A stretch of 64,000 nucleotides of DNA, taken from the NCBI GenBank assembly GCA_002339345.1, contig DDKM01000060.1:1580-65579 (forward strand). The letters are read 5' to 3'. The notes beneath the pieces were generated by a model. That model saw only the letters and a list, made by a program, of their open reading frames with translations, was not told the DNA's origin and did not search any database. Below, piece by piece: positions 21,003-50,818 of the stretch; the stretch's first letter is position 1, and each line of letters opens with the position of its first letter. Source of the stretch: Firmicutes bacterium UBA2598. GTDB lineage: Bacteria > Bacillota > PH28-bin88. Both the position numbers and the translations under genes were made by a program.

Positions 21003-21755
21003 CTACGTCACGGGCGCCAGCGTCTGGTTGAAACCCGAGGGATTTCCCCCTTCCAGCACCGCCAACGGGTTGGCACAACCGATGACGTGGGCGGCCGTCC
21101 CTCCCACCATACCGGCAATTTGCCGGATGGCACGGCTCAAGCCCGGTGGCCGCTGGTTGATGGAGTGGGCATCGGATCCCAACAGGTGCACCCATCCACG
21201 CCGGACCAACAGTTCCGCCCTTTGGGCGGTGACAGGGCCGTAATCACCGGTAATGCTGCCGGCATTCATCTGGATTAAAATCCCTTGGGAAACCAGCTGT
21301 TCAAGGAAATGCAAATTGGCGACCAGAGGGTCGCAGCGCTCAGGATGGGCTAGTACAGGGGTAATTCCCAGGTGGAGTAGTGTACACAGTACCTCCTCGG
21401 TGTAGGGAGGCACTCGTCCAAATGGCAATTCCACCAGCAGGTGTTTACCCATGTCATTGATGGTGAGGATATCCCCATCCACCACCTGACCCGGTAGATC
21501 AGCATGTAAATACACCTCGGCCGCCGGGAAAAGGACGACGGGGATGCCCTCTTCCCAGAAATGCTGCCGCAAAACACTTGTTTGAGTAATAATCCTTTCC
21601 CTACCGTTGTGGTACTTTCCTACATGGCAGTGGGGTGTCAGCACCATGGCCCTGGTTCCTTCCGCCCAAGCCATGCGGGCCATCACCAGGGAGTCCGCCA
21701 GAAAGTCTGCCCCATCATCCAGACCTGGTAGGATGTGTGTGTGAAAATCAATCAA
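21003..21755 (-). CDS. PHP-family protein-tyrosine phosphatase (CpsB/YwqE type)
   Basis: The sequence shows MIDFHTHILPGLDDGA and later HPER and GSDAHS motifs. Confidence 0.8.
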   Translation of the reverse strand: MIDFHTHILPGLDDGADFLADSLVMARMAWAEGTRAMVLTPHCHVGKYHNGRERIITQTSVLRQHFWEEGIPVVLFPAAEVYLHADLPGQVVDGDILTINDMGKHLLVELPFGRVPPYTEEVLCTLLHLGITPVLAHPERCDPLVANLHFLEQLVSQGILIQMNAGSITGDYGPVTAQRAELLVRRGWVHLLGSDAHSINQRPPGLSRAIRQIAGMVGGTAAHVIGCANPLAVLEGGNPSGFNQTLAPVT

Positions 21756-21780: not shown

Positions 21781-22848
21781 TCAAAAGTCCGGGGTCAACA
21801 CCACCCTTTTGGGCAGCCTGCCGCCATGGACATCATGAAACACCGACTGGATGTCACCCATGGGCTTTACCTCCACAAAGGGCTCAACCTGGATCCGGCG
21901 GTCCAGCACCAACTGTAAAACTTCAGGATAATATCGCGGCAAGCAACCCCAGGTACCGATAATTTCCGCGTCAAAGGCCATTAATCGGGACAACATGTAC
22001 TCCACCTTGTGGGTACCAAAACCTACCACAATCATTTTTCCGATAAACCATAGAAGCTCTAGGCAGATCTCCTGCCCCATCCTGGTGCCAGTACATTCAA
22101 ACAGCTTCCAACCAAAGGCGGGCAGATCCCGGGCCTTACAGTAAGCCCGGAATTCCTCCCTAACCTCCTGCACACCCTTTTCGGTGGTGTTAATGGTGAA
22201 AGTGGCACCATACCGCAGGGAACGCTCCAGCTTGGGTGCCACCATGTCCACGGCTACCACTTCCCGTGCCCCCAGCACCGAGGCAATCTGGGTCATGTAT
22301 GTGCCGATTCCGCCCACCGCACCGGTGATCAGCACCAGATCCCCAGCCTGAAGATCTGCCCGTTTGGCGGCCTGGTAAGGAGAGGTAACGGCGTCTGCCA
22401 CCACCGCCAGTTGTTCCAGTGGCAGATCCTGGCGGTTTTCCACCACACAGAGATCCCTGGCCGGCACCGGGATATGGCTGGCAAACCCGCCGTAAACGCC
22501 CAGGCTGTTTCCGGGCATGGCCTGGTGCAAGCACCGGTTGCCCCGGCCGGCAGCGCAAATGGGACAGGCGTTGCACGGCATCACGGCCGGGATGATCACC
22601 TCCTTGCCCAGCATGTCCTCCGCCCCTGCCACCACCCGGCCGCTGATCTCATGTCCCAGGATGAGGGGCGATTTGGTAACGGTGGGTACTCCGTTGTAGA
22701 AATAGCCGATGTCGGTGTGGCATACGCCGCACCCGGCGATCTCCACCAACACCTCCCCAGGTTTCAGGGCGGGGACATCGATGGTAACCTTTTCCATCTT
22801 GCCCGGTTCAGTCATTTGCCACCCTTGGATTTTCCAAGGTCTACCCAT
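21781..22848 (-). CDS. had: zinc-dependent alcohol dehydrogenase, candidate 6-hydroxycyclohex-1-ene-1-carbonyl-CoA dehydrogenase
   Basis: The MDR zinc motif is present (CGVCHTDIGYFYNGVPTVTKSPLILGHEISG). Its size and its position next to dch and oah match the benzoyl-CoA lower pathway. The ATG at 22848 has a GAGGGGG SD, whereas the tracked start at 22884 overlaps dch. Confidence 0.75.
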   Translation of the reverse strand: MGRPWKIQGWQMTEPGKMEKVTIDVPALKPGEVLVEIAGCGVCHTDIGYFYNGVPTVTKSPLILGHEISGRVVAGAEDMLGKEVIIPAVMPCNACPICAAGRGNRCLHQAMPGNSLGVYGGFASHIPVPARDLCVVENRQDLPLEQLAVVADAVTSPYQAAKRADLQAGDLVLITGAVGGIGTYMTQIASVLGAREVVAVDMVAPKLERSLRYGATFTINTTEKGVQEVREEFRAYCKARDLPAFGWKLFECTGTRMGQEICLELLWFIGKMIVVGFGTHKVEYMLSRLMAFDAEIIGTWGCLPRYYPEVLQLVLDRRIQVEPFVEVKPMGDIQSVFHDVHGGRLPKRVVLTPDF

Positions 22849-22868
22849 GGTTTCGACCCCCTCATCTG

Positions 22869-23663
22869 TTATTTCCCCTGCCACACCGGCCGGCGCTTTG
22901 CCATAAAGGCCTCCAGACCCTCGTGGGCATCACGGGTTTGCATCAGTTCCTGCAGGTAAATGTGGTCAATGTCACGTAATCCGTCGGCAAACCCTTTGCC
23001 CAAACCTACCCGCACCGCCTTTTTGGTCAACGCCAACACCACAGGGCTTTGATCCAGCAGCTGCCGCAAAAAGTCCGACACCCCCTGGGCAAAGGTATCG
23101 GCAGGAAACACCCTGTTCACTAACCCCCATTGCTCTACCTGGGCGGCTGTGCACACCTGGCCGGTCAACAACAGTTCTATGGCCCGAGGCCATGGCAGCA
23201 GACGCGGCAAAAGATAACAGGCAATGGGCGGAAACACCCCGACACTGATCTCCGGTTGGCCAAACTTGGCCTTGTCCGAAGCAAGGATCAGATCGCAAAA
23301 GAGGACCAGTTCACAGCCGCCCCCAAGGGCAGCCCCGTTTACTGCCGCCACAATGGGCTTATCAATCCGATGCATTGTGTAAAAAATTTCATCAAAAACA
23401 GTAATCATCCGTTCAACCTTGTCTGCCGTGTGGTCCGCCACATCCACCCCGGCGGAAAAGGCCTTTCCTTTTGCTTCCAGCAACACCAGGGCAGACGGTT
23501 GGCTGTCGGCCCACCGCAGGGCGTCAACCAACTCCTCTATCATATCGATGGTCAATACATTCATGGGTGGGCGGTCCAAGGTAATGACCGCCACCCCTCC
23601 TTCATTGCGAACCTGCAGGTACTGGTATGACAATCCTACTCCCTCCCTTCCGGTACGGGACAT
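22869..23663 (-). CDS. dch: enoyl-CoA hydratase family, candidate cyclohexa-1,5-diene-1-carbonyl-CoA hydratase
   Basis: It has a crotonase fold (VAVITLDRPPMNVL and FSAGVDV). The ATG at 23663 follows a GAGGAGG SD. The gene sits between oah and had. Confidence 0.7.
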   Translation of the reverse strand: MSRTGREGVGLSYQYLQVRNEGGVAVITLDRPPMNVLTIDMIEELVDALRWADSQPSALVLLEAKGKAFSAGVDVADHTADKVERMITVFDEIFYTMHRIDKPIVAAVNGAALGGGCELVLFCDLILASDKAKFGQPEISVGVFPPIACYLLPRLLPWPRAIELLLTGQVCTAAQVEQWGLVNRVFPADTFAQGVSDFLRQLLDQSPVVLALTKKAVRVGLGKGFADGLRDIDHIYLQELMQTRDAHEGLEAFMAKRRPVWQGK

Positions 23664-23673
23664 CCCGCCTCCT

Positions 23674-24810
23674 CTATTCCTTGCGCTGGGGCAATACAGC
23701 GTCAACCAACTCCTGGTCAAAGGGTCTTCCCTCCGCCAATATCCGGCGGTAGGCAATGAAATCACACTCACTGCGCCCGGTGATCTTCTTGTTGTTAAAA
23801 GCATTGAATCCCAGATAGGCTTCACTCATCATGTTGGCCGCAAGCCAGTGGCGGCTGGAGAGCTTGGACTGGTCCCAAAAGAATTTTTTCTTCTGGCGGA
23901 TGCCATCGATGGACATCATCAGACAGTGGGGGAACAGGTTGGTCAGGGCCAGGACAACCCTGTTTACCTCCTGGTCCAATAGGGAATAGTCCACCACACA
24001 GTCCTTCATGAGGGCCCGGGCCTCTTCCGCGGCTGCCCCCTCCCGGAACTCCCCATAGACAATGCGTCCATCGGACACATATTGCTCGGTATATACCAGC
24101 GGGTTCCTGATAAATTGGTCACCCTGTTTGAGTACTGGCACCGCCTTGGAAATCAGACCAAGCCTTTCCATCTTGTAGGCACTCCACTGTTCACAGGATA
24201 TACAGCTCCACATGGCGTGCTCCATGCCCAAAAACCAGAACAGGTAATCGGTAACACCGCCAACGGGCGCGGAACCGTGTTTGGGTCCAGCCTGGCCGAA
24301 GAGTGCTAGATCCGATGAGATGGAAAGATCACAGGCCAGCCCGATTTCCTGCCCCCCTGCCACCCGCATTCCATTTACCCGGCAAATAACCGGCTTTTTA
24401 CACATGAAAATGGCATCAACCATACCGTTAAAAAGGTCCATGTACAGGGCATATTCGCTGGGATTACCGCTGTAGTACTCGGCATACTCCTTGGTGTTCC
24501 CCCCGGTACAAAAGGCTTTATCACCGGTGCCGGTAAACACTACGGCAACCACTGAGCGGTCCATGGAAGCCCGGTGAAAACCGGCGATGACACCTTTCAC
24601 CATCTCCGTGGTATAGGAATTGTACTGGGCAGGATTGTTCAAGATCACCCAGGCCGTATAAAGTCCTTCGATGGGATTGCCGTTTCCGTCAACCACCAGC
24701 CTTTTTTGGTACACCACGCCCGGCGCCTCGCTGCGGAAATGCTCTTCCCCAAACAGGTCATGGTTTTTCAGACCCGTTTGCCGGGGCCACTTGGTCAAAT
24801 CCATAGCCAT
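23674..24810 (-). CDS. oah: 6-oxocyclohex-1-ene-1-carbonyl-CoA hydrolase (ring-cleaving, BamA/Oah/BzdY type)
   Basis: This is an enlarged crotonase of about 378 aa with the motifs VVFTGTGDKAFCTGGNTKEY and RVNGMRVAGGQEIGLACDL. Size and motifs are characteristic of BamA/Oah. Confidence 0.8.
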   Translation of the reverse strand: MAMDLTKWPRQTGLKNHDLFGEEHFRSEAPGVVYQKRLVVDGNGNPIEGLYTAWVILNNPAQYNSYTTEMVKGVIAGFHRASMDRSVVAVVFTGTGDKAFCTGGNTKEYAEYYSGNPSEYALYMDLFNGMVDAIFMCKKPVICRVNGMRVAGGQEIGLACDLSISSDLALFGQAGPKHGSAPVGGVTDYLFWFLGMEHAMWSCISCEQWSAYKMERLGLISKAVPVLKQGDQFIRNPLVYTEQYVSDGRIVYGEFREGAAAEEARALMKDCVVDYSLLDQEVNRVVLALTNLFPHCLMMSIDGIRQKKKFFWDQSKLSSRHWLAANMMSEAYLGFNAFNNKKITGRSECDFIAYRRILAEGRPFDQELVDAVLPQRKE

Positions 24811-24831
24811 TCCTCCTTCACGCGGGTTTTT

Positions 24832-27303
24832 CTAAAATAAGTCATCCATATCTCCCACACCCTCCGGCAAGTGCCCGTGCTGTTGCAAGAACTGTTGGAT
24901 CAACTGGCTTTCCCGCGAGGTATACATGGGATCTTCCTCATAACCGAAAAAGGCTACCCTGCCCATATACTCCAATTGTTCAGCCAGGGAACGGTGAAGG
25001 TTCGCAGTGCCAACTATGGCCAGAATCTTCTTGTTGTTGTCCAGTAGTTGGTAAACACCCTCCCCTTCCGGCACCCGGGCCACATTTTCTTTGTTGAATG
25101 GTAACCACCGGTCCGGCGGAAAGGGTGGAGCCCCAATGGACAGCCGCAAGTCGCAACGCAGGCACCGGGAGGCTTCCGTTACCGCCATATCCTCCAGCAA
25201 ACCCAGTTCCACCTCACCAAACCTGGCCACCAGCACCTCCCCGGCAGGACATTGGTTACCGGCAGCAATCCGCTGCCATGGCCGCTGCAGGACGCCATGC
25301 CGATCCATGGCCGCAAATCCCTCCACCTGGCCGAGGAAACCCGAAACCGGTTCTCGTGGCACCAGTTCCTCCTCAATGACACCGTCCCCCCCCAGGTACC
25401 GGTCGATGGCGCTGGCAGCCGTCCGCCCGGCGGCAATGGCCTCAATGACCGACTTGGGGCCGGTGACAGCGTCACCACAGGCAAAGATCCCGCTGATGGT
25501 GGTACCCATGGTTTTGGGATCAACAATCAGGTACCCCCCAGGTCCTACAAGGCCTGCCAGTTCACCCAAAAAGTTAATTTCCGGCCGCTGGCCGATGGCA
25601 ATGATTACAGTATCTGCCGGAACTTCTTCCTCCGTCCCCTGGATAAAGGAAGGGTTGAATAGCCCTTCCCCGTCCAACAGGGCCGCCACGGCAATGGTGG
25701 TTACCCCTTCCACCTTGCCCTTTGCCCCCTGTAGGGAATGTACCCCCCGCCCATGACAGATGCATACCCCCTCCTGGCGGGCGGCCGCCACCTCTGCCGG
25801 AAAAGCGGGCATTTCTCCGTCCGCTTCCATGCAATAGACGGTAACGGTCTCCGCCCCCAGGCGCAGGGCGGTGCGAGCAGCATCAATGGCCACATTACCG
25901 CCACCGATTATCACTACCCGCGGGCCCACCGACAGGTATTCTCCGAGGCTCACCCCGCGTAGAAAATGGGCGCCGTAATAAACCCCGGATAGATCCTCAC
26001 CCGGTACTCCCAGATGAATCACGCCCTGGGTGCCAGTGGCCAACAGGACAGCGTGAAAGCCCTGGGCCAGGAGGGCCCCGGCATCACGCACCGGATGATT
26101 GGTCTTGATCCTAACCCCCGCACCGGCAATTTCCCCAACTTCCCTTTCCAGAACATCCCTTGGCAGCCGGTAAGGGGGGATCCCCAGCCTAGTCATGCCC
26201 CCCGCCACCGGCTGGGCTTCAAATACAGTGACATCATGGCCCTGCCGGGCCAGGTAATAGGCAGCGGTCAAACCGGCGGGGCCGGCGCCCACCACCGCCA
26301 CATACCTCCCGCTTGGCAGGACAGCCCTTTGCCTCGTGCGCCACCACCCGCTGTCCTGGTCAGCCACAAAGCGCTTCAGGCGGCATATGGAAACGGGCTG
26401 GTTCAAGAATCCCCGGCGGCACCCTGTTTCACAGGGATGGAAACAAACCCGGCCCAGAGTGGCCGGAAAGGGCACCCTTTCCCTGATCACTGCCAGGGCA
26501 TGATCGAACTGTTCCGTGGCGATTAGCCTCACATACCAGGGCACGTCAATTCCCGCCGGACAGTTGTGCCGGCAGGGCACCAGGGCCGCATCGCCCGCAG
26601 CTCCCTGGATACCCATGTCCGTCAGGGCACCCGTCGGACAGACGGCCACACAGGCAGTGCAAAACCGGCAGTGGGACTGGGCAAGGGAGGTCCCGGTGGT
26701 GGACACCACCGAGCGTCCCTGGAATTCCATCGCCTGTAACGCACCCACACCCCGGATGTCCCGGCACACCCGCACACACCGCAGGCAGCCAATGCAAAGG
26801 TTGTAATCCCGCCGGATGAGGGGCTCCTCCTCAACCACCGGCAGTCCTAGAAACCGGTACCGGGGAGTTTCCGGCTTGATTCCGACAAATCCGGCCACCC
26901 TTTGCACTTCGCAGTTACCCAGTTCAGGACAGCACCTTTCCTCCACCGGCACATTGCTGGAACACTGGGTACGACTGCAACCCTCCTGCTGGGCACAGGT
27001 CAGGCATGCGTGGGGATGGTTCGCCAGAATGGCCATCAGCTTATCCTGCCGGTAATCCCGCACCCTTCGGGTGCCGGTATACACCATCATCCCGGGTACA
27101 ACCAGGGTCTCGCAGGATTGGGCCAGTTCATCCCGGCCCTCAACTTCCACCACACACAGCCTGCATATCCCACCCGGAGGCAGATCGGGGTGGGAGCACA
27201 ACCCAGGAATATAGATCCCTGCCATCCGGGCCGCTTCCATGATGGTCCACCCGGGCTGGGCCTCCACCGGTAGTCCGTCAATGTAAAGTTGGACTGGTTC
27301 CAT
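24832..27303 (-). CDS. multidomain Fe-S flavoprotein: 2Fe-2S plus 4Fe-4S NuoG-like N-terminus, GltD-like NAD(P)H/FAD oxidoreductase, and an unusual C-terminal tail (candidate ferredoxin-reducing BzdV analogue)
   Basis: The N-terminus is MEPVQLYIDG...CRLCVVEV. 4Fe-4S motifs follow (CIGCLRCVRVC and CRFCTACVAVCP). A dinucleotide fold (VAVVGAGPAGLTAAYYL) and a second GG motif (VVIIGGGNVAIDAA) are also present. Confidence 0.8.
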   Translation of the reverse strand: MEPVQLYIDGLPVEAQPGWTIMEAARMAGIYIPGLCSHPDLPPGGICRLCVVEVEGRDELAQSCETLVVPGMMVYTGTRRVRDYRQDKLMAILANHPHACLTCAQQEGCSRTQCSSNVPVEERCCPELGNCEVQRVAGFVGIKPETPRYRFLGLPVVEEEPLIRRDYNLCIGCLRCVRVCRDIRGVGALQAMEFQGRSVVSTTGTSLAQSHCRFCTACVAVCPTGALTDMGIQGAAGDAALVPCRHNCPAGIDVPWYVRLIATEQFDHALAVIRERVPFPATLGRVCFHPCETGCRRGFLNQPVSICRLKRFVADQDSGWWRTRQRAVLPSGRYVAVVGAGPAGLTAAYYLARQGHDVTVFEAQPVAGGMTRLGIPPYRLPRDVLEREVGEIAGAGVRIKTNHPVRDAGALLAQGFHAVLLATGTQGVIHLGVPGEDLSGVYYGAHFLRGVSLGEYLSVGPRVVIIGGGNVAIDAARTALRLGAETVTVYCMEADGEMPAFPAEVAAARQEGVCICHGRGVHSLQGAKGKVEGVTTIAVAALLDGEGLFNPSFIQGTEEEVPADTVIIAIGQRPEINFLGELAGLVGPGGYLIVDPKTMGTTISGIFACGDAVTGPKSVIEAIAAGRTAASAIDRYLGGDGVIEEELVPREPVSGFLGQVEGFAAMDRHGVLQRPWQRIAAGNQCPAGEVLVARFGEVELGLLEDMAVTEASRCLRCDLRLSIGAPPFPPDRWLPFNKENVARVPEGEGVYQLLDNNKKILAIVGTANLHRSLAEQLEYMGRVAFFGYEEDPMYTSRESQLIQQFLQQHGHLPEGVGDMDDLF

Positions 27304-27337
27304 GATTTTGCCGCCCCCGTGCTACATATTTCCGGCT

Positions 27338-27619
27338 CTACCAGGAATGGCGGAGACCTCCCAGGCGGCAAGCCGCCACACAGGGAATTTCCTTTGTTCC
27401 GCCGGTGGGTTTGCATGGCGCGCAACTGTACTTGATTTTTTTGCGGTGTTCCTCGCGTACCGCAATGACCTGGTCATCGTAATCATCGGTGATCACTTCC
27501 AGCACCTGTTCCGGGCAGGCCTCCACACAGCCTTTATCCGGACAACCGGCACACCTGCCGGTATCCACCGAAATAAAGAACTCACCGGATCCGTCCTTGT
27601 AACCGTAATTGGCAAACAT
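27338..27619 (-). CDS. ferredoxin (2x[4Fe-4S]-type), candidate electron donor to the reductase
   Basis: Cys motifs are CAGCPDKGCVEACP and CAPC...CVAAC. It occupies the position of bzdM in the Azoarcus gene order. Confidence 0.7.
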   Translation of the reverse strand: MFANYGYKDGSGEFFISVDTGRCAGCPDKGCVEACPEQVLEVITDDYDDQVIAVREEHRKKIKYSCAPCKPTGGTKEIPCVAACRLGGLRHSW

Positions 27620-27644
27620 GCCGAGCCACCTCCTTCAGATGGTT

Positions 27645-28574
27645 CTAACCCTTCCCCTTTTCCACCAGTGCCTTGGCAAAAAGGGCGGCCCCCAGGGCGC
27701 CGGCGATCTGGGTGTCGTACCTGGGCTTCAGGGCCTTTAAGTTCAGCTCCTTTTCAATGCGGCTGACCACACCGATGTTTTTGGCGATGCCGCCGGTAAT
27801 GGCAAAATCCCTTTCCACACCATTGCGTTCCAAAAGGGATACCACCCGGTGGGCCATGGCGGAACAGTAGGCTGCCAGCACCCTTTCCTTCGGCCAGCCC
27901 GCCCGCAACAGCCCGGTGGCCTCGGTCTTGGCAAATACCACACAGGTGCTGCTCACCGGCGGGGGCTCCTTCTCCACCTGCAGGGACATTTCCCCAACCT
28001 CTTCAATGGAAACCGCCAGCAGGTTGGCAAAGACCTCCATTCCCCTCCCCGTGCCGGCCGCGCACTTGTCATTCATCAGGAAGGAGACCACCTTCCCCTT
28101 TTCATCACACCGGATGGCCTTGCAGTCCTGACCACCCATATCAAGGACGGTGCGCACCGTCGAACCGTACATGTAATTGGCCCCCCGGGCATGGCAGGCA
28201 ATTTCCGTGACCGTCTTGTTGGCAAAGGGCACATTTACCCGGCCGTACCCGGTGCCGACGGTATAAGTGAGATCCTCCATTTTCATGCCGGTGTTTTCCA
28301 TGGCCCACTTCATGGCTTTGATTGCGCTATCCGGACTGTCCGACCCCGTACGCATATTGGAATAGGCATAAAGTTCCCCGTCCAACATGATCACCGCCTG
28401 GGTACTTACCGAACCCACATCCACCCCACCGGAAATTATCTTGGCCTTCCGCCAGTCCCTGGAGGGATCAAACCAGTTGTATTCAGTCCACCGCCAGTAC
28501 TCCTTCGGCTTATCCGCTTGGTTTACAACCATGCCAATTACCTCCCCTTTGCGGAAATCCAGTTTTGTCGCCAT
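27645..28574 (-). CDS. bzdQ: benzoyl-CoA reductase ATP-binding subunit (BcrAD_BadFG family; BzdQ/BcrA position)
   Basis: The acetate/sugar-kinase-type ATPase fold is visible in GGVDVGSVSTQAVIM, DMGGQDCKAI, NDKCAAGTGRG and ITGGIAKN. The subunit name is assigned by gene order only. Confidence 0.8.
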   Translation of the reverse strand: MATKLDFRKGEVIGMVVNQADKPKEYWRWTEYNWFDPSRDWRKAKIISGGVDVGSVSTQAVIMLDGELYAYSNMRTGSDSPDSAIKAMKWAMENTGMKMEDLTYTVGTGYGRVNVPFANKTVTEIACHARGANYMYGSTVRTVLDMGGQDCKAIRCDEKGKVVSFLMNDKCAAGTGRGMEVFANLLAVSIEEVGEMSLQVEKEPPPVSSTCVVFAKTEATGLLRAGWPKERVLAAYCSAMAHRVVSLLERNGVERDFAITGGIAKNIGVVSRIEKELNLKALKPRYDTQIAGALGAALFAKALVEKGKG

Positions 28575-28585
28575 TGTACAGAGCC

Positions 28586-29362
28586 CTAACCGGCCGCGCG
28601 TTCCGCGGCGGCCAGTGCCGCTCCAAGGGCGCTGACATATTCCGGTTCCCCGGGTACCAGCACAGCCATTTCCAGGCCCTCTCCCAGGGCTTTGACGAAT
28701 CCCACATTGCGACCTACCCCGCCGGTCATGACCAGGTCCTTTTCCACACCTACCCGGCGGGCCATGGAAATAATCCTACTGGCAATGGCGTCGTGCACCG
28801 CCTTGGAAATGTCCTCTTTGGTCACCCGGGAATGAATGAGGGATACCACCTCCGATTCAGCAAAAACGGCACACTGGGCGTTCATGGGGATTACCTTGGA
28901 TGACTGCAGGGCCAAGGGCCCCATCTCTTCCAGGGGAACTTCCAGTGCCCTGGCCATAGCCTCGGTAAAGGAACCCGCTCCGGCGGCACACTTTTCATTG
29001 ATGGCAAAGTCCACAATCCGGCCCTTTTCATCACACTTGATGGCCCGGCCTTCCTCCGCCCCCACATCGATGATGGTCCGGCCAGATGGGAACAGGAATA
29101 CCGCTCCCTTCGCATCTGCGCCCACTTCGGTGATGGTGTCGTTGGCGAAGGTTACCGCACCTTTGCCTGCCCCCGTGGCCAGCACGCACCGGACCTCTTC
29201 CCTGGCCACACCAGCCTCCGCCAGCGCCCTGGTATAGGCCTCCTCCGCAGCCTGCTGCTGATCAAAGCCGCTTAAAACCATGTATTTGGACAGCACCTGA
29301 CCATCCTTCATCACCACTACCTTGGTATACTTGTTGCCCACATCTACGCCAGCGGTGATCAT
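28586..29362 (-). CDS. bzdP: benzoyl-CoA reductase ATP-binding subunit (BcrAD_BadFG family; BzdP/BcrD position)
   Basis: Motifs are MITAGVDVGNKYTKVVVM, DVGAEEGRAI, NEKCAAGAGSF and MTGGVGRN. The ATG at 29362 follows a GGAGGGGGG SD. The tracked start at 29455 overlaps bzdO. Confidence 0.8.
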   Translation of the reverse strand: MITAGVDVGNKYTKVVVMKDGQVLSKYMVLSGFDQQQAAEEAYTRALAEAGVAREEVRCVLATGAGKGAVTFANDTITEVGADAKGAVFLFPSGRTIIDVGAEEGRAIKCDEKGRIVDFAINEKCAAGAGSFTEAMARALEVPLEEMGPLALQSSKVIPMNAQCAVFAESEVVSLIHSRVTKEDISKAVHDAIASRIISMARRVGVEKDLVMTGGVGRNVGFVKALGEGLEMAVLVPGEPEYVSALGAALAAAERAAG

Positions 29363-29384
29363 GTTTACCCCCCTCCATTGATAA

Positions 29385-30698
29385 CTAGTAAAGTTTTTTA
29401 TACCCCATGCTTTCCATAAAGGTGTCGATACGCGCCAGCACACTGACCTCATCAAACTCCCGTTCGTCCCCCATGTTGCCTTCGAAGGTCATTACCGGAA
29501 AGCCCTCCTTCAACAACCCCAGTCGGTTCTCGGCAATCCCACAGCTTAAGCCCTCACATCCCCGGTTGTAGTGCAGCATAATCCCGTCCAGCTTCCACTC
29601 CCTGGCAATGCGGGCCATCATATCGGTTTTCAGTTGTGGATGGTAAAAGTGCTGCCATTCTGGTTTGCTTAAATTCCATTCCGCGATGATCATCAGGGCC
29701 TGGTCCCTGGTTTTGATTTCAATGCCCTTGGCCATGGGAGTTGTACGGGGTCCCCAGGTGCCATCCTCCTTGATCTCCCAAATGCCTTCCAGGCCAAAGG
29801 TGTAGAGGGAACCCACCGAAACGGCGCCGTACCGCTCCAGGTACCGAAATACTTTTAGGAAGCCCCAGGGTGGCTGGGTGTCGGACATCAATCGGCATTG
29901 TTCATTGCCGACGGCGGCAATCCCGCGGGCTACCCGGTCCTGCACTTCATCCCGTAGCTCTGTGTAGAAATCCACCACCTTTTTGTTGGCCTTCATCAGG
30001 GTGCCGAAGACATAAAGGGAATACATGGCCTTTTCATCCAGTGGAGCAGGCACCGCCTTGTTCAGGGTACAGATTTCCGCCCAGAGGGAGGTGGAAAGGC
30101 ACTCATTCTTGACCGCCTGGATAAATTTCTCGTCGTCAAATTTCCGTCCCGTAACCTTTTCCAACCATTCAATGCCATCGGCCAGTTGATCAGCCACGTA
30201 CTTGATTTTGTGTTCCGTCAGCTGGTGATAAGGGCCAACGCCCACATCCACACAGTACATGGGAATATCCGGTTCCAGATCCGTCACCACCTGGTACCAC
30301 TTGGCATGGCTGCAACAGATGTGGTCCTGCCAGATAAAATCCGGCTTGGGATACCCTCCCCCCCAGGGGTACTTGTCAAGCAGGATGGATCCCCAGTAAA
30401 TCCGCATGTAGGAGCACAGATCCCGGGGATAACCGGCTTTTTCCGCCGCTTCCATGCATTGCAGTGCCAATTCCTTGTTAAAGGCGATGGACGCCCCGTA
30501 TGGTTCACTGGTTAGCATGTATACATCATCGCCAAGACCATATGGGATGGCGTCAAAGGTCCAGGCGCCGCCAGCCCAGCGCAAACCGCCCCTGGCCTTG
30601 GCATCCCGGTAGTTCAGGTAGTATTCCTCCCTGAGTTCTTTGGCCTTTCCCCAGCACCTCAGCGCTTCTGTGGGATATCGTTGACTTCCCATGGCCAT
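29385..30698 (-). CDS. bzdO: benzoyl-CoA reductase catalytic-module subunit (BcrB/BadE/BzdO type)
   Basis: [31 protein letters not shown] and [11 protein letters not shown] are typical of the BCR beta subunit. The length is 437 aa. Confidence 0.8.
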
Positions 30699-30739
30699 AC
30701 CTCCATTTCTAAGTTCCTGGTGATCAGCGGATGAGGCGG

Positions 30740-31864
30740 TTAGAACAGATCTTCCTGCCGGAGCATTTCCAGGAAGGCCTCCACCCTGATCCTGAAAGGC
30801 CCCAGAGGAACGGTGACATCAAACTCCAGAAACAGGGTGGGGATACCCCTTTCCTGTAGGGCCTTTTGGAAGGCCACAATATCTGCCTCATGGGGATCGC
30901 AGAACTTCTGCTGGACCACGATGGCTCCCTGTACACCCCACTCCCTGGCCATTTCCAACACCCATTCAAGGCGCCTGCGCTTGGGCCAGTCCTTGGTGGG
31001 ACATGGCGGCCGGTCCACATAGCGGGCGGCGATGGCAGCCAAGCGGTCTTCCTGCCATTCCACTTCATTCCAGAAATAACGGCTGCCGGTGCAGTGGTCC
31101 TCGATGACAAAGGTGGCCCCCAGCACCGTTTCTACCATGTTCATGAAGGCGGTGTCGTCATTTTCACTGCCCAGGATCATCAAGCGGTCCCCAGTCCGGC
31201 GTTCCAGTTTCCGGTTAGGCAGCTCCGCCAGGATTTCCCCAAGTCCCTTGTTGTGTTCCACCTTGTCGGTCATCTGGCTGGCCAGCACCATGTACATAGC
31301 CTCCAGACCGGTAACGGGCACCTCCTCCCGTTTTCTTAATTCATATACCTGGCGCATGAGGCGGCGGTTGGTGTTCATAATTTCAATGCCTCGGTCCAGG
31401 TCCTGGTCGGTGATGGTTTTGCCGGTCCAATCCTCCAGGGCTTTTTTAAAAGCCGCCAATTCCTCCCGTAAAAAGGGGTAAGCCCGCGGGCTCTGGACAT
31501 GATGCGGCATGGGCAGGAAATAGCTGAACTCCCTGGGCACATGGATGTCCCAGCTGGTGAAGGCCTGGCGGATATGCAAGCAGGACTGGGCAATCATAAT
31601 ACCATCCAGGTAGTCATAGCGGCCCTTCAGCCCCTGGGCAAGACAGTCCCGGCAGAATGGGCAATACATACCGAAGATGTGGGGCTCGGTGACATCCTGG
31701 GGCTCATGGCTGCCCAAGATACGTACCGGTAGCATGCCAGCGGCGTAAATAAGCTCTTCCGGTACATAAGTGCAAAAATAACCGATCACCTTTCCACCGG
31801 TTTTTTCCTTCCACTCCCTGGCATAACGATGCCTGTCATGATACCATTCCCGAAAGATATCCAC
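30740..31864 (-). CDS. bzdN: benzoyl-CoA reductase catalytic-module subunit (BcrC/BadD/BzdN type)
   Basis: Motifs are [31 protein letters not shown] and KFCDPH (HgdB/BcrC family). It is the first gene of the operon. Confidence 0.8.
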
Positions 31865-32169
31865 CCTTCATCCCCTCTCCCGTTTCGACTGTATGAATAT
31901 TTCTGATTATCGTACTACACACCCCTTTCCCACAGTGCTTTTTGAATTTAAGGAGGTTGTGGTTGTCAACTTGATTATAGAAAACCGGATCTGCCCTTTG
32001 TATCGCCATAAAGCATGGAAAAAGGTTATAATTTGGTGCTGCCCGTGGGTTACTCCAAAGGGGTGAGGGAAATCACCCGGGTGAATTGTAAAATTTAAGC
32101 AGGAAATTTCTCGTAAATGTTATAATATAAGAAAAATATCTTAATATTTTGGAAATTGGGGGTAATAAC

Positions 32170-33882
32170 ATGCCGCCCGCTATGGATGAACTGCCAGAAC
32201 TGATTATGGTGTGCCGGATTGCCCCCCCCTTTAAAGCCACCAAAAAGGCCAGGATCACACTGCAAAAAATCCTCCAGTCAGCAGTGGATTATCTGGACTT
32301 CCGCTGCGCATTTCTGGCACTAATCAGCAACCAGCGGCCGTCCCTCTTCCTGCAGGCGGTAAGGGACCAAAGGGAAAGGGCAGGGCTTACCGCCGGGCAG
32401 CCCACCACCAACCCCCTTCCCTTTGTCATTGACGCCGATTACAGTGGTGACTGCCTGTCCCGGCTGCAACCGGCAGCCAGGGCAACCTTATCGGTGGTTC
32501 TGCGGGCGGGGGATCCCCTTGGGAGCATGGAGGTCGGCGTTGTTGGCCCAACTGCGGAAATGGCGGACAACTTCCTGAACAAGGCCCTGTCTATCGGACG
32601 CCATGTAGCGGATACGATACAGGATTCCTTTTTCATTAAACAAAAGGACCGCGGATTACGCAGGCTGTCCCTATGGCTAGAAACCGTTTCCGCCATCAGT
32701 TCCACCCTGAATATCAACCAGGTGATGCACGTGGTAACCCAGTTGGCAGCAGACCTGTTTTCCGCCCGCTGCTGCATTTTCCTCTTCAATGACCAGGATG
32801 GCTCATTGGTGCCCGCAGTGGCCGTGGGTAGTTACGATCCGGTTGTGAAGAAAAAATGGAAGGCCCTGAAGGGCTGTTCCCCCTTTCCCGCTATCCTTGA
32901 CCTAATCAAAACACGCGAAACGGTGGTATTGACCCCCGAAAACATCCAAAATGGTATGCCCCAGGGCATGATAGATGATTTTTCCTATGCCCGGGTGGTA
33001 ATTGCGCCCATAACCTTTAAAGACAAGGTATTCGGGGTAATGCAGGTGGACCGCCCTATCCAGGGAAAGGAATTCAGCCAAGAGGAAATCGCCATCATTT
33101 CCGCCATCGCCAAGGAAACGGCGGTAGCCATGGAGAATGCCAAACTGATCGAAACTCTGGCCCAAAAGGAACAACTGCTGCACCAGTTATACAATAACCT
33201 CATCTGCGCCCAGGAAGATGAGCGCAAAAGGGTGGCTTCAGAAATCCATGACGGGGTGATCCAAGCCCTCCTTGGCATCTGGTACAGGATGGAGCATCTC
33301 ACCGGTTGCGGAAGCCCGCATAAGATCAACTTCCAGGAGGAAATGTCCCGGTTGAAGGACCTGCTGGGGGAACAGATCCAGAACATCCGCCAGATCGTAT
33401 ACAACCTCCGCCCGGTTATGCTGGACACTTACGGTCTAGGTCCAGCGGTGCGCAGCCTTTTGCGCAATCTACAGGAGGAAAGCGGCATCACCTTTGAACT
33501 GGCTATGGAGAGTGCCAACTACCGGCTGCCGACCAACTTTGAAGTAGCCCTGTACCGAATCCTACAGGAACTGCTGGCCAATGTAGTTAAACATTCCCAG
33601 GCCACCAAAAGTCAAGTGATGCTGATTGTGGGGCAGGATCAAACGGTACTAGTGGTCAGGGATAACGGTACCGGCTTTGACCGCTTGCAAATCAAACGGT
33701 GGCCGCCGCCGGGAAACCACCTGGGTCTGGCCAGCATTCAGGAAAGGGTGCTTTTGCTGGGAGGAACCTGTGCCATTAACTCCCAACTGGGATGGGGTAC
33801 CACCATCACCATCCAGGTGCCCACTCCCCAGCCGTCGGAAGGAGGGACTGCCCATGCCAAAAATAAACTTGCTCATTGTTGA
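32170..33882 (+). CDS. GAF-domain sensor histidine kinase (HisKA_3 / NarX-DegS type)
   Basis: A GAF-like core is present (CCIFLFNDQDGSLVPAVAVG...VFGVMQVDRP). The H-box is EDERKRVASEIHDGVIQ, followed by a HATPase_c domain (VVRDNGTGF). The ATG at 32170 follows a GGGGG SD. Confidence 0.85.
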   Translation: MPPAMDELPELIMVCRIAPPFKATKKARITLQKILQSAVDYLDFRCAFLALISNQRPSLFLQAVRDQRERAGLTAGQPTTNPLPFVIDADYSGDCLSRLQPAARATLSVVLRAGDPLGSMEVGVVGPTAEMADNFLNKALSIGRHVADTIQDSFFIKQKDRGLRRLSLWLETVSAISSTLNINQVMHVVTQLAADLFSARCCIFLFNDQDGSLVPAVAVGSYDPVVKKKWKALKGCSPFPAILDLIKTRETVVLTPENIQNGMPQGMIDDFSYARVVIAPITFKDKVFGVMQVDRPIQGKEFSQEEIAIISAIAKETAVAMENAKLIETLAQKEQLLHQLYNNLICAQEDERKRVASEIHDGVIQALLGIWYRMEHLTGCGSPHKINFQEEMSRLKDLLGEQIQNIRQIVYNLRPVMLDTYGLGPAVRSLLRNLQEESGITFELAMESANYRLPTNFEVALYRILQELLANVVKHSQATKSQVMLIVGQDQTVLVVRDNGTGFDRLQIKRWPPPGNHLGLASIQERVLLLGGTCAINSQLGWGTTITIQVPTPQPSEGGTAHAKNKLAHC

Positions 33883-34519
33883 TGATCATCCCATGATCCG
33901 GGAAGGACTGGTCACCATGCTCGCCCATTTTTCCGACATTCAAATCATAGGCACCTGTGCTGACGGGCAGGAAGCGATAGAAGCCGTAAAGGAAAACCTT
34001 CCCGATGTGATTCTGATGGACTTGAAGATGGTAAAAATGAACGGTATTGAGACCACCCGTGAAATCGTTTCCCGTTATCCGGGAGTAAGGGTGATTATCC
34101 TGACCATCTATGAGGATGCCGATTCCGTACGGCTGGCACTGCAGGCAGGAGCCTCTGGCTATGTGCTAAAACAGGCATCCCGCGAAAAGCTAGTGGAAAG
34201 CATCAGGCTTGTGCACAGGGGCAACCCCATTATCGATACTACTCTATTAAGCCAGTTGGTGATTGATTATACCCGCATGGCCAAGGAAGCCGCCACCCAT
34301 GGGCAAACCCAGGTCGCCGATGACAATAAGCGGCTGAGCACCCGGGAGAATGAAATTGCCCGGTTGTTAGCCCAGGGCCTGACCAACAAGGAAATATCCG
34401 CGAAAACACACCTGGCGGTGGATACCGTCAAAACCCACTTGCGCAATATATACCGTAAACTGGGGGCGAAAAACCGCTCCCAGGCCATTACCCTCATCAG
34501 CCGGAAAATCAGTTTATAA
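33854..34519 (+). CDS. NarL/LuxR-family response regulator
   Basis: The receiver domain shows MPKINLLIVDDHPMIREGL and DVILMDLKM. The C-terminus has a LuxR HTH (LSTRENEIARLLAQGLTNKEISAKTHLAVDTVKTHL). The ATG at 33854 follows a GGAAGGAGGG SD and overlaps the kinase 3' end. Confidence 0.9.
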   Translation: MPKINLLIVDDHPMIREGLVTMLAHFSDIQIIGTCADGQEAIEAVKENLPDVILMDLKMVKMNGIETTREIVSRYPGVRVIILTIYEDADSVRLALQAGASGYVLKQASREKLVESIRLVHRGNPIIDTTLLSQLVIDYTRMAKEAATHGQTQVADDNKRLSTRENEIARLLAQGLTNKEISAKTHLAVDTVKTHLRNIYRKLGAKNRSQAITLISRKISL

Positions 34520-35097: not shown

Positions 35098-35176
35098 CTA
35101 TTACCATCCCACCCCATTTTACTAACTGTCCCATGCCTGAAGGGACACCGCCGCCGGGAAAACCTGCGCTCCCAAA

Positions 35177-37433: not shown

Positions 37434-37452
37434 CTACGTCACCACCCTTTCC

Positions 37453-50810: not shown

Positions 50811-50818
50811 ATCTCACC

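What the first reader, a model, noticed from the sequence alone, without database searches (positions are those of the whole stretch)
21781..31864. Complete Azoarcus(Bzd)-type ATP-dependent class I benzoyl-CoA reductase operon in what looks like a spore-forming Firmicute
Seen in the sequence:
- Nine co-directional, tightly packed genes are present. Two are BcrC/BcrB-type catalytic subunits, two are BcrAD_BadFG ATPase subunits, and the others are a small ferredoxin, an 823-aa Fe-S flavoprotein, a BamA/Oah-type ring hydrolase, a crotonase and a Zn-ADH.

Established knowledge:
- This is the order bzdN-O-P-Q-M...(V)...W/X/Y of Azoarcus/Aromatoleum.
- Class I reductases spend 2 ATP per ring and are textbook enzymes of facultative denitrifiers and phototrophs.
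- Obligate anaerobes, including Gram-positive sulfate reducers and syntrophs, are expected to use the ATP-independent W/Se class II BamB-I system.

Inference:
- The surrounding genes (cwlD, spore-type GH18, DUF503, rubrerythrin, GGAGG SDs) indicate a strictly anaerobic endospore former.
- The operon is therefore an energetic and evolutionary outlier. It may reflect lateral acquisition, or the reductase may act on a substituted aryl-CoA that class II enzymes cannot handle.
Basis: partly seen in the sequence, partly recalled or inferred. Interest (0 to 1): 0.6.

Follow-up and report, generated by a model that had tools for sequence, protein, structure and literature searches.

The report
ATP-driven benzoyl-CoA reductase operon, Firmicute
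[quoted passage not shown] This goes against the textbook rule for strict anaerobes, but the same exception has already been reported from many other anaerobe genomes.

Summary
Nine intact, co-directional, tightly packed minus-strand genes at 21781-31864 encode a Bzd-type class I benzoyl-CoA reductase (bzdNOPQ), a small Cys-rich ferredoxin, an 823-aa NfnB/GltD-like Fe-S flavoprotein (BzdV-like), Oah, a crotonase and Had.

BzdN, BzdO, BzdQ, Oah and Had pass NCBIfam equivalog cut-offs. BzdO keeps 15 of 16 active-site residues of the crystallised Aromatoleum enzyme, including His131, which separates reductases from dehydratases.

The host is a MAG (84% complete) of a four-species, class-level Bacillota lineage. 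It has SpoIVA, DsrAB and cytochrome bd, but no NarG, no haem-copper oxidase and no BamB.

The "outlier" reading is only partly supported:
- I found no sign of recent transfer: composition is typical, and the wider synteny is shared with the sister genus PH28_bin88.
- The active site gives no hint of a substituted substrate.
- The six-gene core module occurs in the same order in at least ten phyla of anaerobes.
- Class I reductases in strict anaerobes are already published (Ferroglobus, D. gibsoniae, Chloroflexi, seep MAGs).

This scan has also found the same module before on other DNA (TA06, Thermoplasmata).

Verdict: a real, probably functional new member of a known kind, of moderate interest. 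Activity, ATP stoichiometry and expression are untested.

The parts
30740..31864 (-). bzdN: reductase subunit that carries the double-cubane [8Fe-9S] cluster
   Evidence: TIGR03190 scores 519.5 against a cut-off of 453.8. Best solved relative is 8s02_B (BzdN) at 508 bits and 59% identity. Seven Cys plus Arg53, Arg267, Arg290 and His330 (Aromatoleum numbering) are conserved.
29385..30698 (-). bzdO: catalytic subunit with the aqua-[4Fe-4S] cluster and the benzoyl-CoA site
   Evidence: TIGR03191 scores 696 against 448.6. Best solved relative is 8s02_A (BzdO) at 674 bits and 65% identity. Cys95, Cys128, Cys380, Glu65, His131, Trp46, Tyr97, Tyr298, Gln274, Leu302 and Leu383 are conserved. Ser44 is Gly here, as in all 81 environmental homologues.
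28586..29362 (-). bzdP-like ATPase subunit of the electron-activating dimer
   Evidence: BcrAD_BadFG scores 169 bits and TIGR00241 scores 222. Both HgdC-type cluster cysteines are present (NEKCAAG, AQCAVFAE). The start was moved to ATG 29362, which has a GGAGGGGGG Shine-Dalgarno sequence.
27645..28532 (-). bzdQ ATPase subunit
   Evidence: TIGR03192 scores 445.9 against 380.2. Both cluster cysteines are present (NDKCAAGTG, SSTCVVFA). The start is probably ATG 28532.
27338..27619 (-). small ferredoxin with 8 Cys, in the BzdM position
   Evidence: The Cys pattern is CxxCx4CxxxCP ... CxxCx10CxxxC. The Fer4_6 match is weak, 22.7 bits against a cut-off of 25. There is no close solved relative. A homologue (48-76% identity) lies directly after bzdQ in about 55 of 80 related loci.
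24832..27303 (-). 823-aa Fe-S flavoprotein, BzdV-like; putative NAD(P)H:ferredoxin oxidoreductase
   Evidence: The N-terminus has a 2Fe-2S domain and NuoG/HydA-like 4Fe-4S domains. The core is NfnB/GltD-like (Fer4_20 plus Pyr_redox_2), followed by DUF7508. Solved relatives: 9bov_A at 393 bits, 9n5u_A 'NfnA' at 350, NfnB 4ylf_B at 227. A full-length homologue follows the ferredoxin in 49 of 55 loci.
23674..24810 (-). [quoted passage not shown]
   Evidence: TIGR03200 scores 558.7 against 464.45.
22869..23663 (-). crotonase, candidate dienoyl-CoA hydratase (Dch/BzdW role)
   Evidence: ECH_1 scores 177 bits. The Dch equivalog TIGR03189 scores only 145 against 292.5. The role is inferred from the gene's position between oah and had. 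Homologues of 36-48% identity lie next to bzd modules in other phyla.
21781..22848 (-). [quoted passage not shown]
   Evidence: TIGR03201 scores 480.1 against 338.65. The start is ATG 22848.
21003..21755 (-). PHP/CpsB-type phosphatase, a possible tenth gene of the transcription unit
   Evidence: PF19567 scores 171 bits. The gene starts 25 nt after had. A homologue also follows had in PH28_bin88 (60% identity over the 71 aa held in L009). Its role is unknown.
32149..34519 (+). divergently transcribed GAF histidine kinase and NarL/LuxR-type response regulator; candidate regulators
   Evidence: Pfam domains are. The pair keeps the same position and orientation upstream of bzdN in PH28_bin88 (72% and 76% identity) and in MAG119 (65% and 70%). 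A regulatory link has not been tested.

Best explanation
The nine genes form an operon for the central anaerobic benzoyl-CoA pathway of the Aromatoleum (Bzd) type.

Proposed mechanism:
1. The 823-aa NfnB-like flavoprotein takes electrons from NAD(P)H and reduces the small ferredoxin.
2. The BzdPQ heterodimer, two HgdC-type ATPases sharing a bridging [4Fe-4S] cluster, uses ATP hydrolysis to push these electrons to a very low potential.
3. The electrons pass through the [8Fe-9S] cluster of BzdN to the water-bearing [4Fe-4S] cluster of BzdO, where benzoyl-CoA is reduced to cyclohexa-1,5-diene-1-carbonyl-CoA.
4. The crotonase hydrates the diene, Had oxidises the product, and Oah opens the ring to 3-hydroxypimelyl-CoA.

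Shown here: gene identity, intactness, conserved cofactor and active-site residues, conserved gene order, and host traits.

Inferred: activity, the ATP requirement, the NAD(P)H donor, and co-transcription.

The host is a DsrAB-bearing, endospore-lineage, strictly anaerobic Bacillota in which no class II (BamB) enzyme is seen. This operon is therefore probably its only dearomatising system. It would serve the peripheral routes encoded next to it: a 4-hydroxybenzoyl-CoA-reductase-like Mo enzyme and the radical-dehydratase operon.

The cluster was inherited from the common ancestor shared with the PH28_bin88 genus, not recently imported.
For: Enzyme identity:
- Equivalog cut-offs are passed by BzdN, BzdO, BzdQ, Oah and Had.
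- Aromatoleum BzdO and BzdN are by far the best solved relatives, at 674 and 508 bits. HadB and HadC score 111 and 152, and MbdO and MbdN score 58 and 124.
- 15 of 16 BzdO pocket and cluster residues named in PMC11971306 are conserved, including the three Cys ligands, Glu65 and His131 (Ala in HadB).
- BzdN keeps 7 Cys and the Arg/His shell.
- BzdP and BzdQ keep both cluster cysteines.

Operon and module:
- Shine-Dalgarno-supported starts give gaps of 8-53 nt.
- The six-gene module N-O-P-Q-fdx-flavoprotein is conserved in order in about 55 loci from at least 10 phyla.
- BzdV is described as a putative NADPH:ferredoxin oxidoreductase (PMC5658619). An Nfn-like AadN is required for benzoate use in R. 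palustris (PMC9973337).

Host:
- SpoIVA scores 822 against 460, and DsrA 564 against 393.
- NarG and haem-copper oxidase were not found.
- The only AOR-family gene is a true AOR (783 bits to AOR, 240 to BamB).

Inheritance:
- Composition is typical of the genome.
- Synteny with PH28_bin88 runs from the dehydratase operon through the two-component pair to had and php.
Against: - There is no expression or enzyme data.
- The MAG is only 84% complete, so bamB or other genes could be unassembled.
- Spo0A was not found above cut-off.
- The crotonase fails the Dch equivalog cut-off (145 against 292.5).
- The ferredoxin has no recognisable solved relative and only a sub-threshold Pfam match.
- AprA-like proteins score 359-392 against a cut-off of 642 in all four genomes of the family. 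Sulfate respiration, and therefore the energy budget, is not established.
- By textbook energetics, 2 ATP per ring plus ligase costs are hard to pay under sulfate reduction (PMC6472368, PMC5736913).
Confidence: 0.85

Rival explanations
1. The organism has both reductase classes, as Desulfotomaculum gibsoniae does. A bamB-I cluster would then lie in the roughly 16% of the genome that was not assembled, and the Bzd enzyme would be an accessory or condition-specific system rather than the sole dearomatising enzyme.
For: - MAG completeness is 84%.
- D. gibsoniae carries six bamB copies plus bzdNOPQ-like genes (PMC4148979).
- Relatives carry 6-17 AOR-family paralogues, against one here.
Against: - The only AOR-family gene in the MAG is a true AOR.
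- In the 100%-complete sister genome PH28_bin88, the two paralogues checked against the PDB are not BamB (215 and 79 bits to 4z3w).
- A heuristic BamB probe found no paralogue above 32% identity or 251 bits, in that genome or in this one. The probe was recalled from memory but calibrated: it gave 247, 214 and 86 bits where the real 4z3w gave 240, 215 and 79.
Confidence: 0.12
2. The reductase is specialised for a substituted aryl-CoA (3-hydroxy-, methyl- or halo-benzoyl-CoA) rather than benzoyl-CoA.
For: - Ser44, which lies near C3 of the ring in the Aromatoleum structure, is Gly here.
- A 4-hydroxybenzoyl-CoA-reductase-like enzyme and other aromatic peripheral genes lie nearby.
Against: - Gly44 is present in all 81 environmental homologues. 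Aromatoleum is the exception.
- The other 15 pocket residues are identical to the benzoyl-CoA enzyme.
- The enzyme is far from the 3-methylbenzoyl-CoA reductase MbdO/MbdN (58 and 124 bits).
- Canonical Oah and Had for the unsubstituted ring follow in the operon.
Confidence: 0.07
3. The cluster is a recent horizontal import, for example from denitrifying Betaproteobacteria, or sits on a mis-binned contig. In that case it would say nothing about this lineage's physiology.
For: - Distribution is patchy. BzdO is above cut-off in 2 of 4 genomes of the class and 5 of 401 sampled genomes of the phylum.
- A 'Spirochaetia' MAG nests inside the window's BzdO clade.
Against: - Identity to Aromatoleum is only 65% for BzdO and 59% for BzdN.
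- The nearest relatives are all Bacillota, at 78-92%.
- Tetranucleotide, GC and codon profiles are typical of the genome.
- There is no tRNA, integrase-type repeat or flanking repeat.
- Extended synteny is shared with the sister genus.
- The same 98-kb contig carries Firmicute-type genes.
- Bacillota monophyly of BzdO is not rejected (p-AU 0.53).
Confidence: 0.05
4. The four subunits form a 2-hydroxyacyl-CoA dehydratase with its activator, not a ring reductase.
For: The subunits share the Pfam families HGD-D and BcrAD_BadFG. Genuine dehydratase-like pairs exist elsewhere in the genome.
Against: - HadB and HadC equivalogs score 141 and 169 bits against cut-offs of 750 and 700, while the Bzd equivalogs are passed.
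- His131 is present; HadB has Ala there.
- There are two different ATPase genes, as in reductases.
- Oah and Had lie in the same operon.
Confidence: 0.01

Closest known systems
BzdNOPQ-BzdM-BzdV-BzdWXY of Aromatoleum (Azoarcus) sp. CIB (BzdNO structure PDB 8S02; PMC11971306, PMC5658619)
   Same: - The four reductase subunits are in the same N-O-P-Q order, followed by a ferredoxin and an NAD(P)H-type Fe-S flavoprotein, with the ring-opening enzymes in the same operon.
- BzdO is 65% identical and BzdN 59%.
- All cluster ligands and the catalytic Glu65 and His131 are conserved.
   Different: - The host is a DsrAB-bearing, spore-lineage strict anaerobe rather than a denitrifier.
- bzdS, bzdT, bzdU, bzdZ and bzdA are absent from the operon.
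- The downstream order is oah-dch-had.
- Ser44 is Gly.
- The candidate regulator is a GAF kinase with a NarL-type regulator rather than BzdR.
Bzd-type class I reductase of the strictly anaerobic archaeon Ferroglobus placidus (cited in PMC5852087 and PMC6472368)
   Same: It is an ATP-dependent Azoarcus-type enzyme in an obligate anaerobe that lacks class II genes.
   Different: F. placidus is a hyperthermophilic Fe(III) reducer with a larger free-energy budget, and its ATPase module has been studied biochemically. Nothing has been measured for the present enzyme. I made no sequence comparison with it here.
bzdNOPQ-like genes of Desulfotomaculum (Desulfofarcimen) gibsoniae (PMC4148979)
   Same: It is a Gram-positive, spore-forming, sulfur-oxyanion-reducing Firmicute with Azoarcus-type class I genes.
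   Different: In D. gibsoniae the genes are scattered, not in one transcription unit, and six bamB copies are present. Here they form one compact operon and no bamB is seen.
bzdNOPQ-bzdM-bzdV clusters in MAGs and single-cell genomes of strict anaerobes (Chloroflexi DscP3/Dsc4, PMC5736913; Aminicenantes, TA06, Thermoplasmata and Bathyarchaeota, PMC6472368; Hermodarchaeota, PMC8163825)
   Same: The six-gene core module has the same order, at 70-73% BzdO identity. The energetic paradox is the same one those papers discuss.
   Different: The phylum differs (Bacillota). The host carries DsrAB rather than looking acetogenic or fermentative; no CODH/ACS was found. Oah, dch and had are fused directly behind the module.
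3-methylbenzoyl-CoA reductase MbdONQP (PDB 9G87/9GAI) and the Thauera BcrCBAD type
   Same: They have the same four-subunit class I architecture and the same ATPase fold. BzdQ and BzdP score 207 and 204 bits to MbdQ.
   Different: The catalytic subunits are only distantly related: 58 and 124 bits to MbdO and MbdN, and 61 and 149 bits to the BcrB and BcrC models against cut-offs above 420.
(R)-2-hydroxyisocaproyl-CoA dehydratase HadBC with its activator HadI (PDB 3O3M, 4EHT)
   Same: It belongs to the same BCR/HAD radical-enzyme superfamily and has the same [4Fe-4S] ligation pattern in the alpha subunit.
   Different: - HadB has Ala where BzdO has His131.
- It has a single activator gene.
- Equivalog scores are far below cut-off.
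- ATP is used catalytically rather than stoichiometrically.
AadN of Rhodopseudomonas palustris and NfnB-type enzymes (PMC9973337; PDB 4YLF, 5JCA)
   Same: They share an NfnB/GltD-like FAD and 2x[4Fe-4S] core, encoded beside benzoyl-CoA reductase genes. AadN is proposed to supply reduced ferredoxin to the reductase.
   Different: The 823-aa protein carries an extra N-terminal 2Fe-2S plus NuoG/HydA-like module and a C-terminal DUF7508. Whether it bifurcates electrons is unknown.

Membership tests
Bzd-type class I benzoyl-CoA reductase | BzdN subunit (equivalog TIGR03190) with ligands for the double-cubane cluster | tested here: met
   It scores 519.5 bits against a cut-off of 453.8. It scores 508 bits to 8s02_B. 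Seven Cys plus Arg53, Arg267, Arg290 and His330 are conserved.
Bzd-type class I benzoyl-CoA reductase | BzdO subunit (equivalog TIGR03191) with the Cys95/Cys128/Cys380 cluster, catalytic Glu65 and His131, and the benzoyl pocket | tested here: met
   It scores 696 bits against 448.6. 15 of 16 named residues are identical. Ser44 is Gly, as in all 81 environmental homologues.
Bzd-type class I benzoyl-CoA reductase | Two different HgdC-type ATPase subunits (BzdP, BzdQ), each with two cysteines for a bridging [4Fe-4S] cluster | tested here: met
   BzdQ scores 445.9 on TIGR03192 against 380.2. The second ATPase matches only generic models, because the library has no BzdP model. Both cysteines are present in each subunit.
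Bzd-type class I benzoyl-CoA reductase | Dedicated low-potential ferredoxin (BzdM) and ferredoxin-reducing flavoprotein (BzdV) encoded with the reductase | tested here: inconclusive
   An 8-Cys ferredoxin and an NfnB-like 823-aa protein follow bzdQ here and in about 50 related loci. I could not compare them directly with the Aromatoleum BzdM and BzdV sequences. The ferredoxin has no solved relative.
Bzd-type class I benzoyl-CoA reductase | ATP-dependent two-electron reduction of benzoyl-CoA to the 1,5-dienoyl-CoA | not testable with these tools
   This needs an enzyme assay.
[quoted passage not shown] | Oah and Had equivalogs | tested here: met
   TIGR03200 scores 558.7 against 464.45, and TIGR03201 scores 480.1 against 338.65.
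[quoted passage not shown] | Dienoyl-CoA hydratase equivalog (TIGR03189) | tested here: not met
   The crotonase scores 145.2 against 292.5. It is a crotonase in the right operon position, so the role is inferred and membership is not shown.
2-hydroxyacyl-CoA dehydratase (HadBC/HgdAB type) | Equivalog-level similarity to HadB and HadC; Ala at the position of BzdO His131; a single activator | tested here: not met
   Scores are 141 against 750 and 169 against 700. His is present at the position. There are two ATPase genes.
Class II (W/Se, BamB-I) benzoyl-CoA reductase, presence in the host | BamB orthologue in the AOR family | tested here: not met
   The MAG has one AOR-family gene. It scores 783 bits to AOR 9g7j and 240 to BamB 4z3w. 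The MAG is 84% complete, so absence is not proven.
Endospore-forming Bacillota (host) | Sporulation-specific core genes | tested here: inconclusive
   SpoIVA scores 822 against 460. No Spo0A is above cut-off; the best match is 77 against 200. Incompleteness of the MAG could explain this.
Dissimilatory sulfate reducer (host) | DsrAB plus AprAB/Sat | tested here: inconclusive
   DsrA scores 564.5 against 392.9, with dsrB adjacent. The AprA-like protein scores only 359 against 642 here, and 369-392 in the three sister genomes.

The most novel reading that the evidence does not exclude
The conserved six-gene unit is bzdNOPQ, a ferredoxin, and a fused 2Fe-2S/NuoG-like plus NfnB-like flavoprotein. 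It could be a self-contained dearomatising cassette adapted to low-energy anaerobes.

Under this reading, the flavoprotein would generate the low-potential ferredoxin by flavin-based electron bifurcation, as proposed for AadN. Alternatively or additionally, the transiently docking BzdPQ would spend fewer than 2 ATP per ring.

Class I enzymes would then be a normal solution, perhaps the commonest one, in sulfite- or sulfate-reducing and fermenting bacteria. The rule of class I for facultative anaerobes and class II for obligate anaerobes would fail for energetic as well as genomic reasons.
Probability: 0.2. Interest if true: 0.65.

Novelty: new member of a known kind. Interest (0 to 1): 0.35.

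Why it matters
Benzoyl-CoA reduction is the bottleneck of anaerobic aromatic degradation. The accepted rule ties the ATP-consuming class I enzyme to denitrifiers and phototrophs.

This operon adds a compact, apparently class-I-only case in a DsrAB-bearing, spore-lineage Bacillota from a class-level lineage with no cultured member. It sits within a block of about 30 kb of aromatic peripheral pathways.

It reinforces the picture from MAG studies that the rule is not general. It also offers a clean candidate, along with its public sister genome PH28_bin88, for measuring ATP stoichiometry and the function of the BzdV-like flavoprotein in a low-energy organism.

It does not reveal a new enzyme type.

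Tried and rejected
- Promoter and terminator scans of 20.5-32.4 kb gave counts at the level of shuffled sequence, so they do not define the transcript.
- NCBIfam has no BamB-specific model. Ten AOR paralogues of PH28_bin88 matched only a generic AOR model or nothing.
- Two PDB look-ups of PH28_bin88 paralogues went to non-BamB proteins. The remaining paralogues could only be ranked with a probe recalled from memory. That probe is a lead, not evidence, although it reproduced three real scores.
- The López-Barragán 2004 bzd paper (PMC516837) is not held. I therefore took the BzdV description from PMC5658619 and made no direct sequence comparison with Aromatoleum BzdM, BzdV or BzdW.
- I considered Ser44Gly as a substrate-specificity marker and rejected it, because Gly is universal outside Aromatoleum.
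- I considered a mobile island and rejected it: there is no tRNA and there are no flanking repeats.
- The tree root rests on a very long outgroup branch, so I make no claim about the direction of transfer between Bacillota and Betaproteobacteria.
- The second AU test, window clade plus Aromatoleum, did not finish.

Full report
**1. What is in the sequence**

The interval 21781-31864 is filled exactly by nine minus-strand ORFs. Pfam and NCBIfam assign them as follows.

| Gene | Model | Score | Cut-off |
|---|---|---|---|
| BzdN | TIGR03190 | 519.5 | 453.8 |
| BzdO | TIGR03191 | 696 | 448.6 |
| BcrAD_BadFG ATPase with no dedicated model (BzdP-like) | TIGR00241 | 222 | 125.4 |
| BzdQ | TIGR03192 | 445.9 | 380.2 |
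| Oah | TIGR03200 | 558.7 | 464.45 |
| Crotonase (Dch equivalog) | TIGR03189 | 145 | 292.5 (failed) |
| Had | TIGR03201 | 480.1 | 338.65 |

The other two genes are a 93-aa protein with eight cysteines and an 823-aa Fe-S flavoprotein. All frames are intact.

Four mechanical ORF starts are too long. Starts supported by a Shine-Dalgarno sequence are 29362 (bzdP), 28532 (bzdQ), 23663 (crotonase) and 22848 (had). These remove all overlaps and leave gaps of 8-53 nt. Promoter and terminator pattern scans were at chance level, so co-transcription is inferred from spacing only.

**2. It is a ring reductase, not a dehydratase**

- The best solved relatives of the two large subunits are Aromatoleum sp. 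CIB BzdO and BzdN (PDB 8S02), at 674 and 508 bits.
- By comparison, the 2-hydroxyisocaproyl-CoA dehydratase scores 111 and 152 bits, and the 3-methylbenzoyl-CoA reductase 58 and 124.
- Identity to the crystallised enzyme is 65.1% for BzdO and 59.1% for BzdN.
- I took the residue list from the structure paper (PMC11971306). The window's BzdO keeps Cys95, Cys128 and Cys380, the catalytic Glu65 and His131, and Trp46, Tyr97, Tyr298, Gln274, Leu302, Leu383, Glu381, Gly382, Gln124 and Ala45.
- His131 is the residue that is Ala in HadB.
- Only Ser44 differs (Gly). Gly is found in all 81 environmental homologues I aligned, so Aromatoleum is the odd one out.
- BzdN keeps seven cysteines and the Arg53, Arg267, Arg290 and His330 shell of the [8Fe-9S] cluster.
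- Both ATPases keep the two cysteines that ligate the bridging cluster in HgdC-type activators.

**3. The electron-donor pair**

The 823-aa protein has three parts:
- an N-terminal 2Fe-2S plus NuoG/HydA-like 4Fe-4S part;
- an NfnB/GltD-like core, whose best solved relatives are 9bov_A at 393 bits, 9n5u_A 'NfnA' at 350, 8oh5_C at 347, NfnB 4ylf_B at 227 and NfnI 5jca_L at 206;
- a C-terminal DUF7508.

In 80 related loci, a homologue of the ferredoxin (48-76% identity) and then a full-length homologue of this protein (40-69%) follow bzdQ in about 55 loci. In 49 of those 55 the match covers the whole length; the others are cut by contig ends.

In Aromatoleum the corresponding gene, bzdV, is described as a putative NADPH:ferredoxin oxidoreductase (PMC5658619). 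In R. palustris an Nfn-like AadN is required for benzoate use (PMC9973337). I therefore read the pair as the ferredoxin-regenerating system. This is an inference. I could not compare directly with Aromatoleum BzdM or BzdV, and the ferredoxin has no solved relative.

**4. The host**

The window lies on a 98-kb contig of a 2.44-Mb MAG with 110 contigs, 84% completeness, 0.3% contamination and 55.8% GC. Its GTDB class holds only four species. One of them is 'Clostridiales bacterium PH28_bin88', which NCBI places in Bacillota, Clostridia.

| Marker | Result |
|---|---|
| SpoIVA | 822 against 460 |
| Spo0A | none above cut-off |
| DsrA (dsrB adjacent) | 564.5 against 392.9 |
| Cytochrome bd | present |
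| NarG | not found |
| Haem-copper oxidase | not found |
| CODH/ACS | not found |

DsrA is also present in two other genomes of the family. An AprA-like protein stays well below the AprA cut-off in all four genomes of the family (359-392 against 642). I therefore call the host a DsrAB-bearing strict anaerobe, not a proven sulfate reducer.

**5. Class II**

The only AOR-family gene of the MAG scores 783 bits to a true aldehyde:ferredoxin oxidoreductase and 240 to BamB.

The complete sister genome PH28_bin88 has 17 AOR-family paralogues. The two I checked against the PDB are not BamB.

A BamB probe written from memory reproduced three real scores: 247, 214 and 86 bits against the real 240, 215 and 79. 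It found nothing above 32% identity in either genome. That probe is a lead, not proof. No BamB orthologue is visible, but a closed genome is needed.

**6. Distribution and history**

- BzdO above cut-off occurs in 2 of 4 genomes of the class and 5 of 401 sampled genomes of the phylum.
- Across all GTDB species representatives, 481 stretches encode a relative. The best 80 are all at least about 70% identical and come from Gemmatimonadota, Planctomycetota, Aminicenantes, Acidobacteriota, Ignavibacteriota, Chloroflexota, Zixibacteria, Elusimicrobiota, Bacteroidota, an archaeon and others.
- In a BzdO tree the window groups with PH28_bin88 (SH-aLRT 95). That pair groups with two Bacillota MAGs and one 'Spirochaetia' MAG (99).
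- A second Bacillota group (Peptococcaceae CEB3, Acididesulfobacillus, SKS3.bin89) sits with Aromatoleum (84). All other phyla form one clade (96).
- Holding the seven Bacillota rows together is not rejected (p-AU 0.53). That group was defined after I had seen the tree.
- The cluster is compositionally ordinary: tetranucleotide distance at the 47th percentile of 332 genome windows, GC at the 70th, and codon usage within the bulk of 1306 long ORFs. It has no tRNA or flanking repeats.
- It shares a long synteny with PH28_bin88: 3-hydroxyacyl-CoA dehydrogenase, enoyl-CoA hydratase, IOR alpha and beta, thiolase, DUF35 and hexapeptide protein; then the divergent regulator-kinase pair; then bzdNOPQ, ferredoxin and flavoprotein; two extra ORFs; then oah, dch, had and the PHP phosphatase.

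The cluster was therefore present in the common ancestor of the two genera. Any transfer is old and did not come recently from denitrifiers.

**7. What is already known**

- The exceptions are published too: F. placidus, shown biochemically (cited in PMC5852087 and PMC6472368); D. gibsoniae, a spore-forming Gram-positive sulfate reducer with scattered bzdNOPQ-like genes plus six bamB copies (PMC4148979); deep-sea Chloroflexi with bzdNOPQ, bzdM and bzdV (PMC5736913); twelve seep MAGs, whose class I genes the authors called surprising (PMC6472368); and Hermodarchaeota (PMC8163825).
- Earlier notes of this scan describe the same module in a TA06 bacterium and a Thermoplasmata archaeon. I did not re-examine those genomes, but the module's breadth is what I saw myself.

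**8. Verdict**

The host inference holds.

The new element is modest: a compact, apparently class-I-only operon in an uncultured, class-level, DsrAB-bearing Bacillota lineage, embedded in a block of aromatic peripheral pathways. Those pathways include a 4-hydroxybenzoyl-CoA-reductase-like Mo enzyme whose alpha subunit scores 1153 against 995 on TIGR03194. They also include the neighbouring dehydratase operon, which another agent has already followed up.

The open question is how such organisms afford the enzyme. It remains open, and it can be tested with the experiments listed under next steps.

Noticed in passing
window 47921-51727 (minus strand): A three-subunit Mo-hydroxylase. Its large subunit passes the 4-hydroxybenzoyl-CoA reductase alpha equivalog (TIGR03194, 1153 against 994.6). 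The small and FAD subunits fail theirs (186 against 258, and 122 against 405). The FAD subunit matches only the first third of the HcrB model, so the extra Fe-S loop of the Thauera enzyme may be missing. An IclR regulator and an MFS transporter follow.
   Followed up: partly
window 34549-44970; also G000:C80:21849-24929 and G000:C99:86513-88276: The genome has two more HGD-D pairs and one single HGD-D gene. The pair at window 41004-43393 has no ATPase beside it. Two further BcrAD-type ATPases lie on C80 and C99, next to the other HGD-D genes. The window operon was already followed up by another agent (e1-3214701).
   Followed up: no
G001, G002, G003 (PH28_bin88), G184; G000:C66:2402-3538: Relatives carry 6, 10, 17 and 14 AOR-family (tungsten aldehyde oxidoreductase-like) genes. 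This MAG has a single one. Several PH28_bin88 paralogues (566-584 aa) match no NCBIfam model at E <= 1e-40.
   Followed up: partly
G000:C12:9754-11379; G001:C1:94085-95749; G002:C7:23282-24946; G003:C46:65131-66753: All four genomes of the family have a full-length AprA-like flavoprotein of about 575 aa that scores only 359-392 bits against the AprA cut-off of 642. It could be a divergent APS reductase or a different enzyme, which leaves the sulfur metabolism of the lineage unclear.
   Followed up: no
G000:C22:95700-97716: A second DsrAB-like pair lies about 4 kb from the genuine dsrAB. One member has an in-frame TGA. This could be selenocysteine, a pseudogene or an assembly error.
   Followed up: no
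L014 (DATKUX010000160.1, 'Spirochaetia bacterium' MAG): Its BzdO (77% identical to the window's) nests inside the otherwise Bacillota clade that holds the window (SH-aLRT 99). This is either a Bacillota-to-Spirochaetota transfer or a mis-binned contig.
   Followed up: no
window 24832-25098 (C-terminus of the 823-aa protein): The C-terminal tail, which another first-reader note read as GIY-YIG-like, matches Pfam DUF7508 (33.5 bits against 26). It is conserved to the last residue in most homologues from other phyla. It is therefore an integral part of this flavoprotein family rather than an added nuclease module.
   Followed up: partly
window 53174-54517 (plus strand): A PaaK-type aryl-CoA ligase falls just below the phenylacetate-CoA ligase cut-off (601 against 646). 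It sits next to an SSF transporter and an amidohydrolase, and may be the activating ligase for one of the aromatic acids fed into the pathway.
   Followed up: no
L009 15813-17877 (PH28_bin88): PH28_bin88 has two extra ORFs (281 and 442 aa) between the flavoprotein gene and oah. They are absent from the window. I did not identify them.
   Followed up: no
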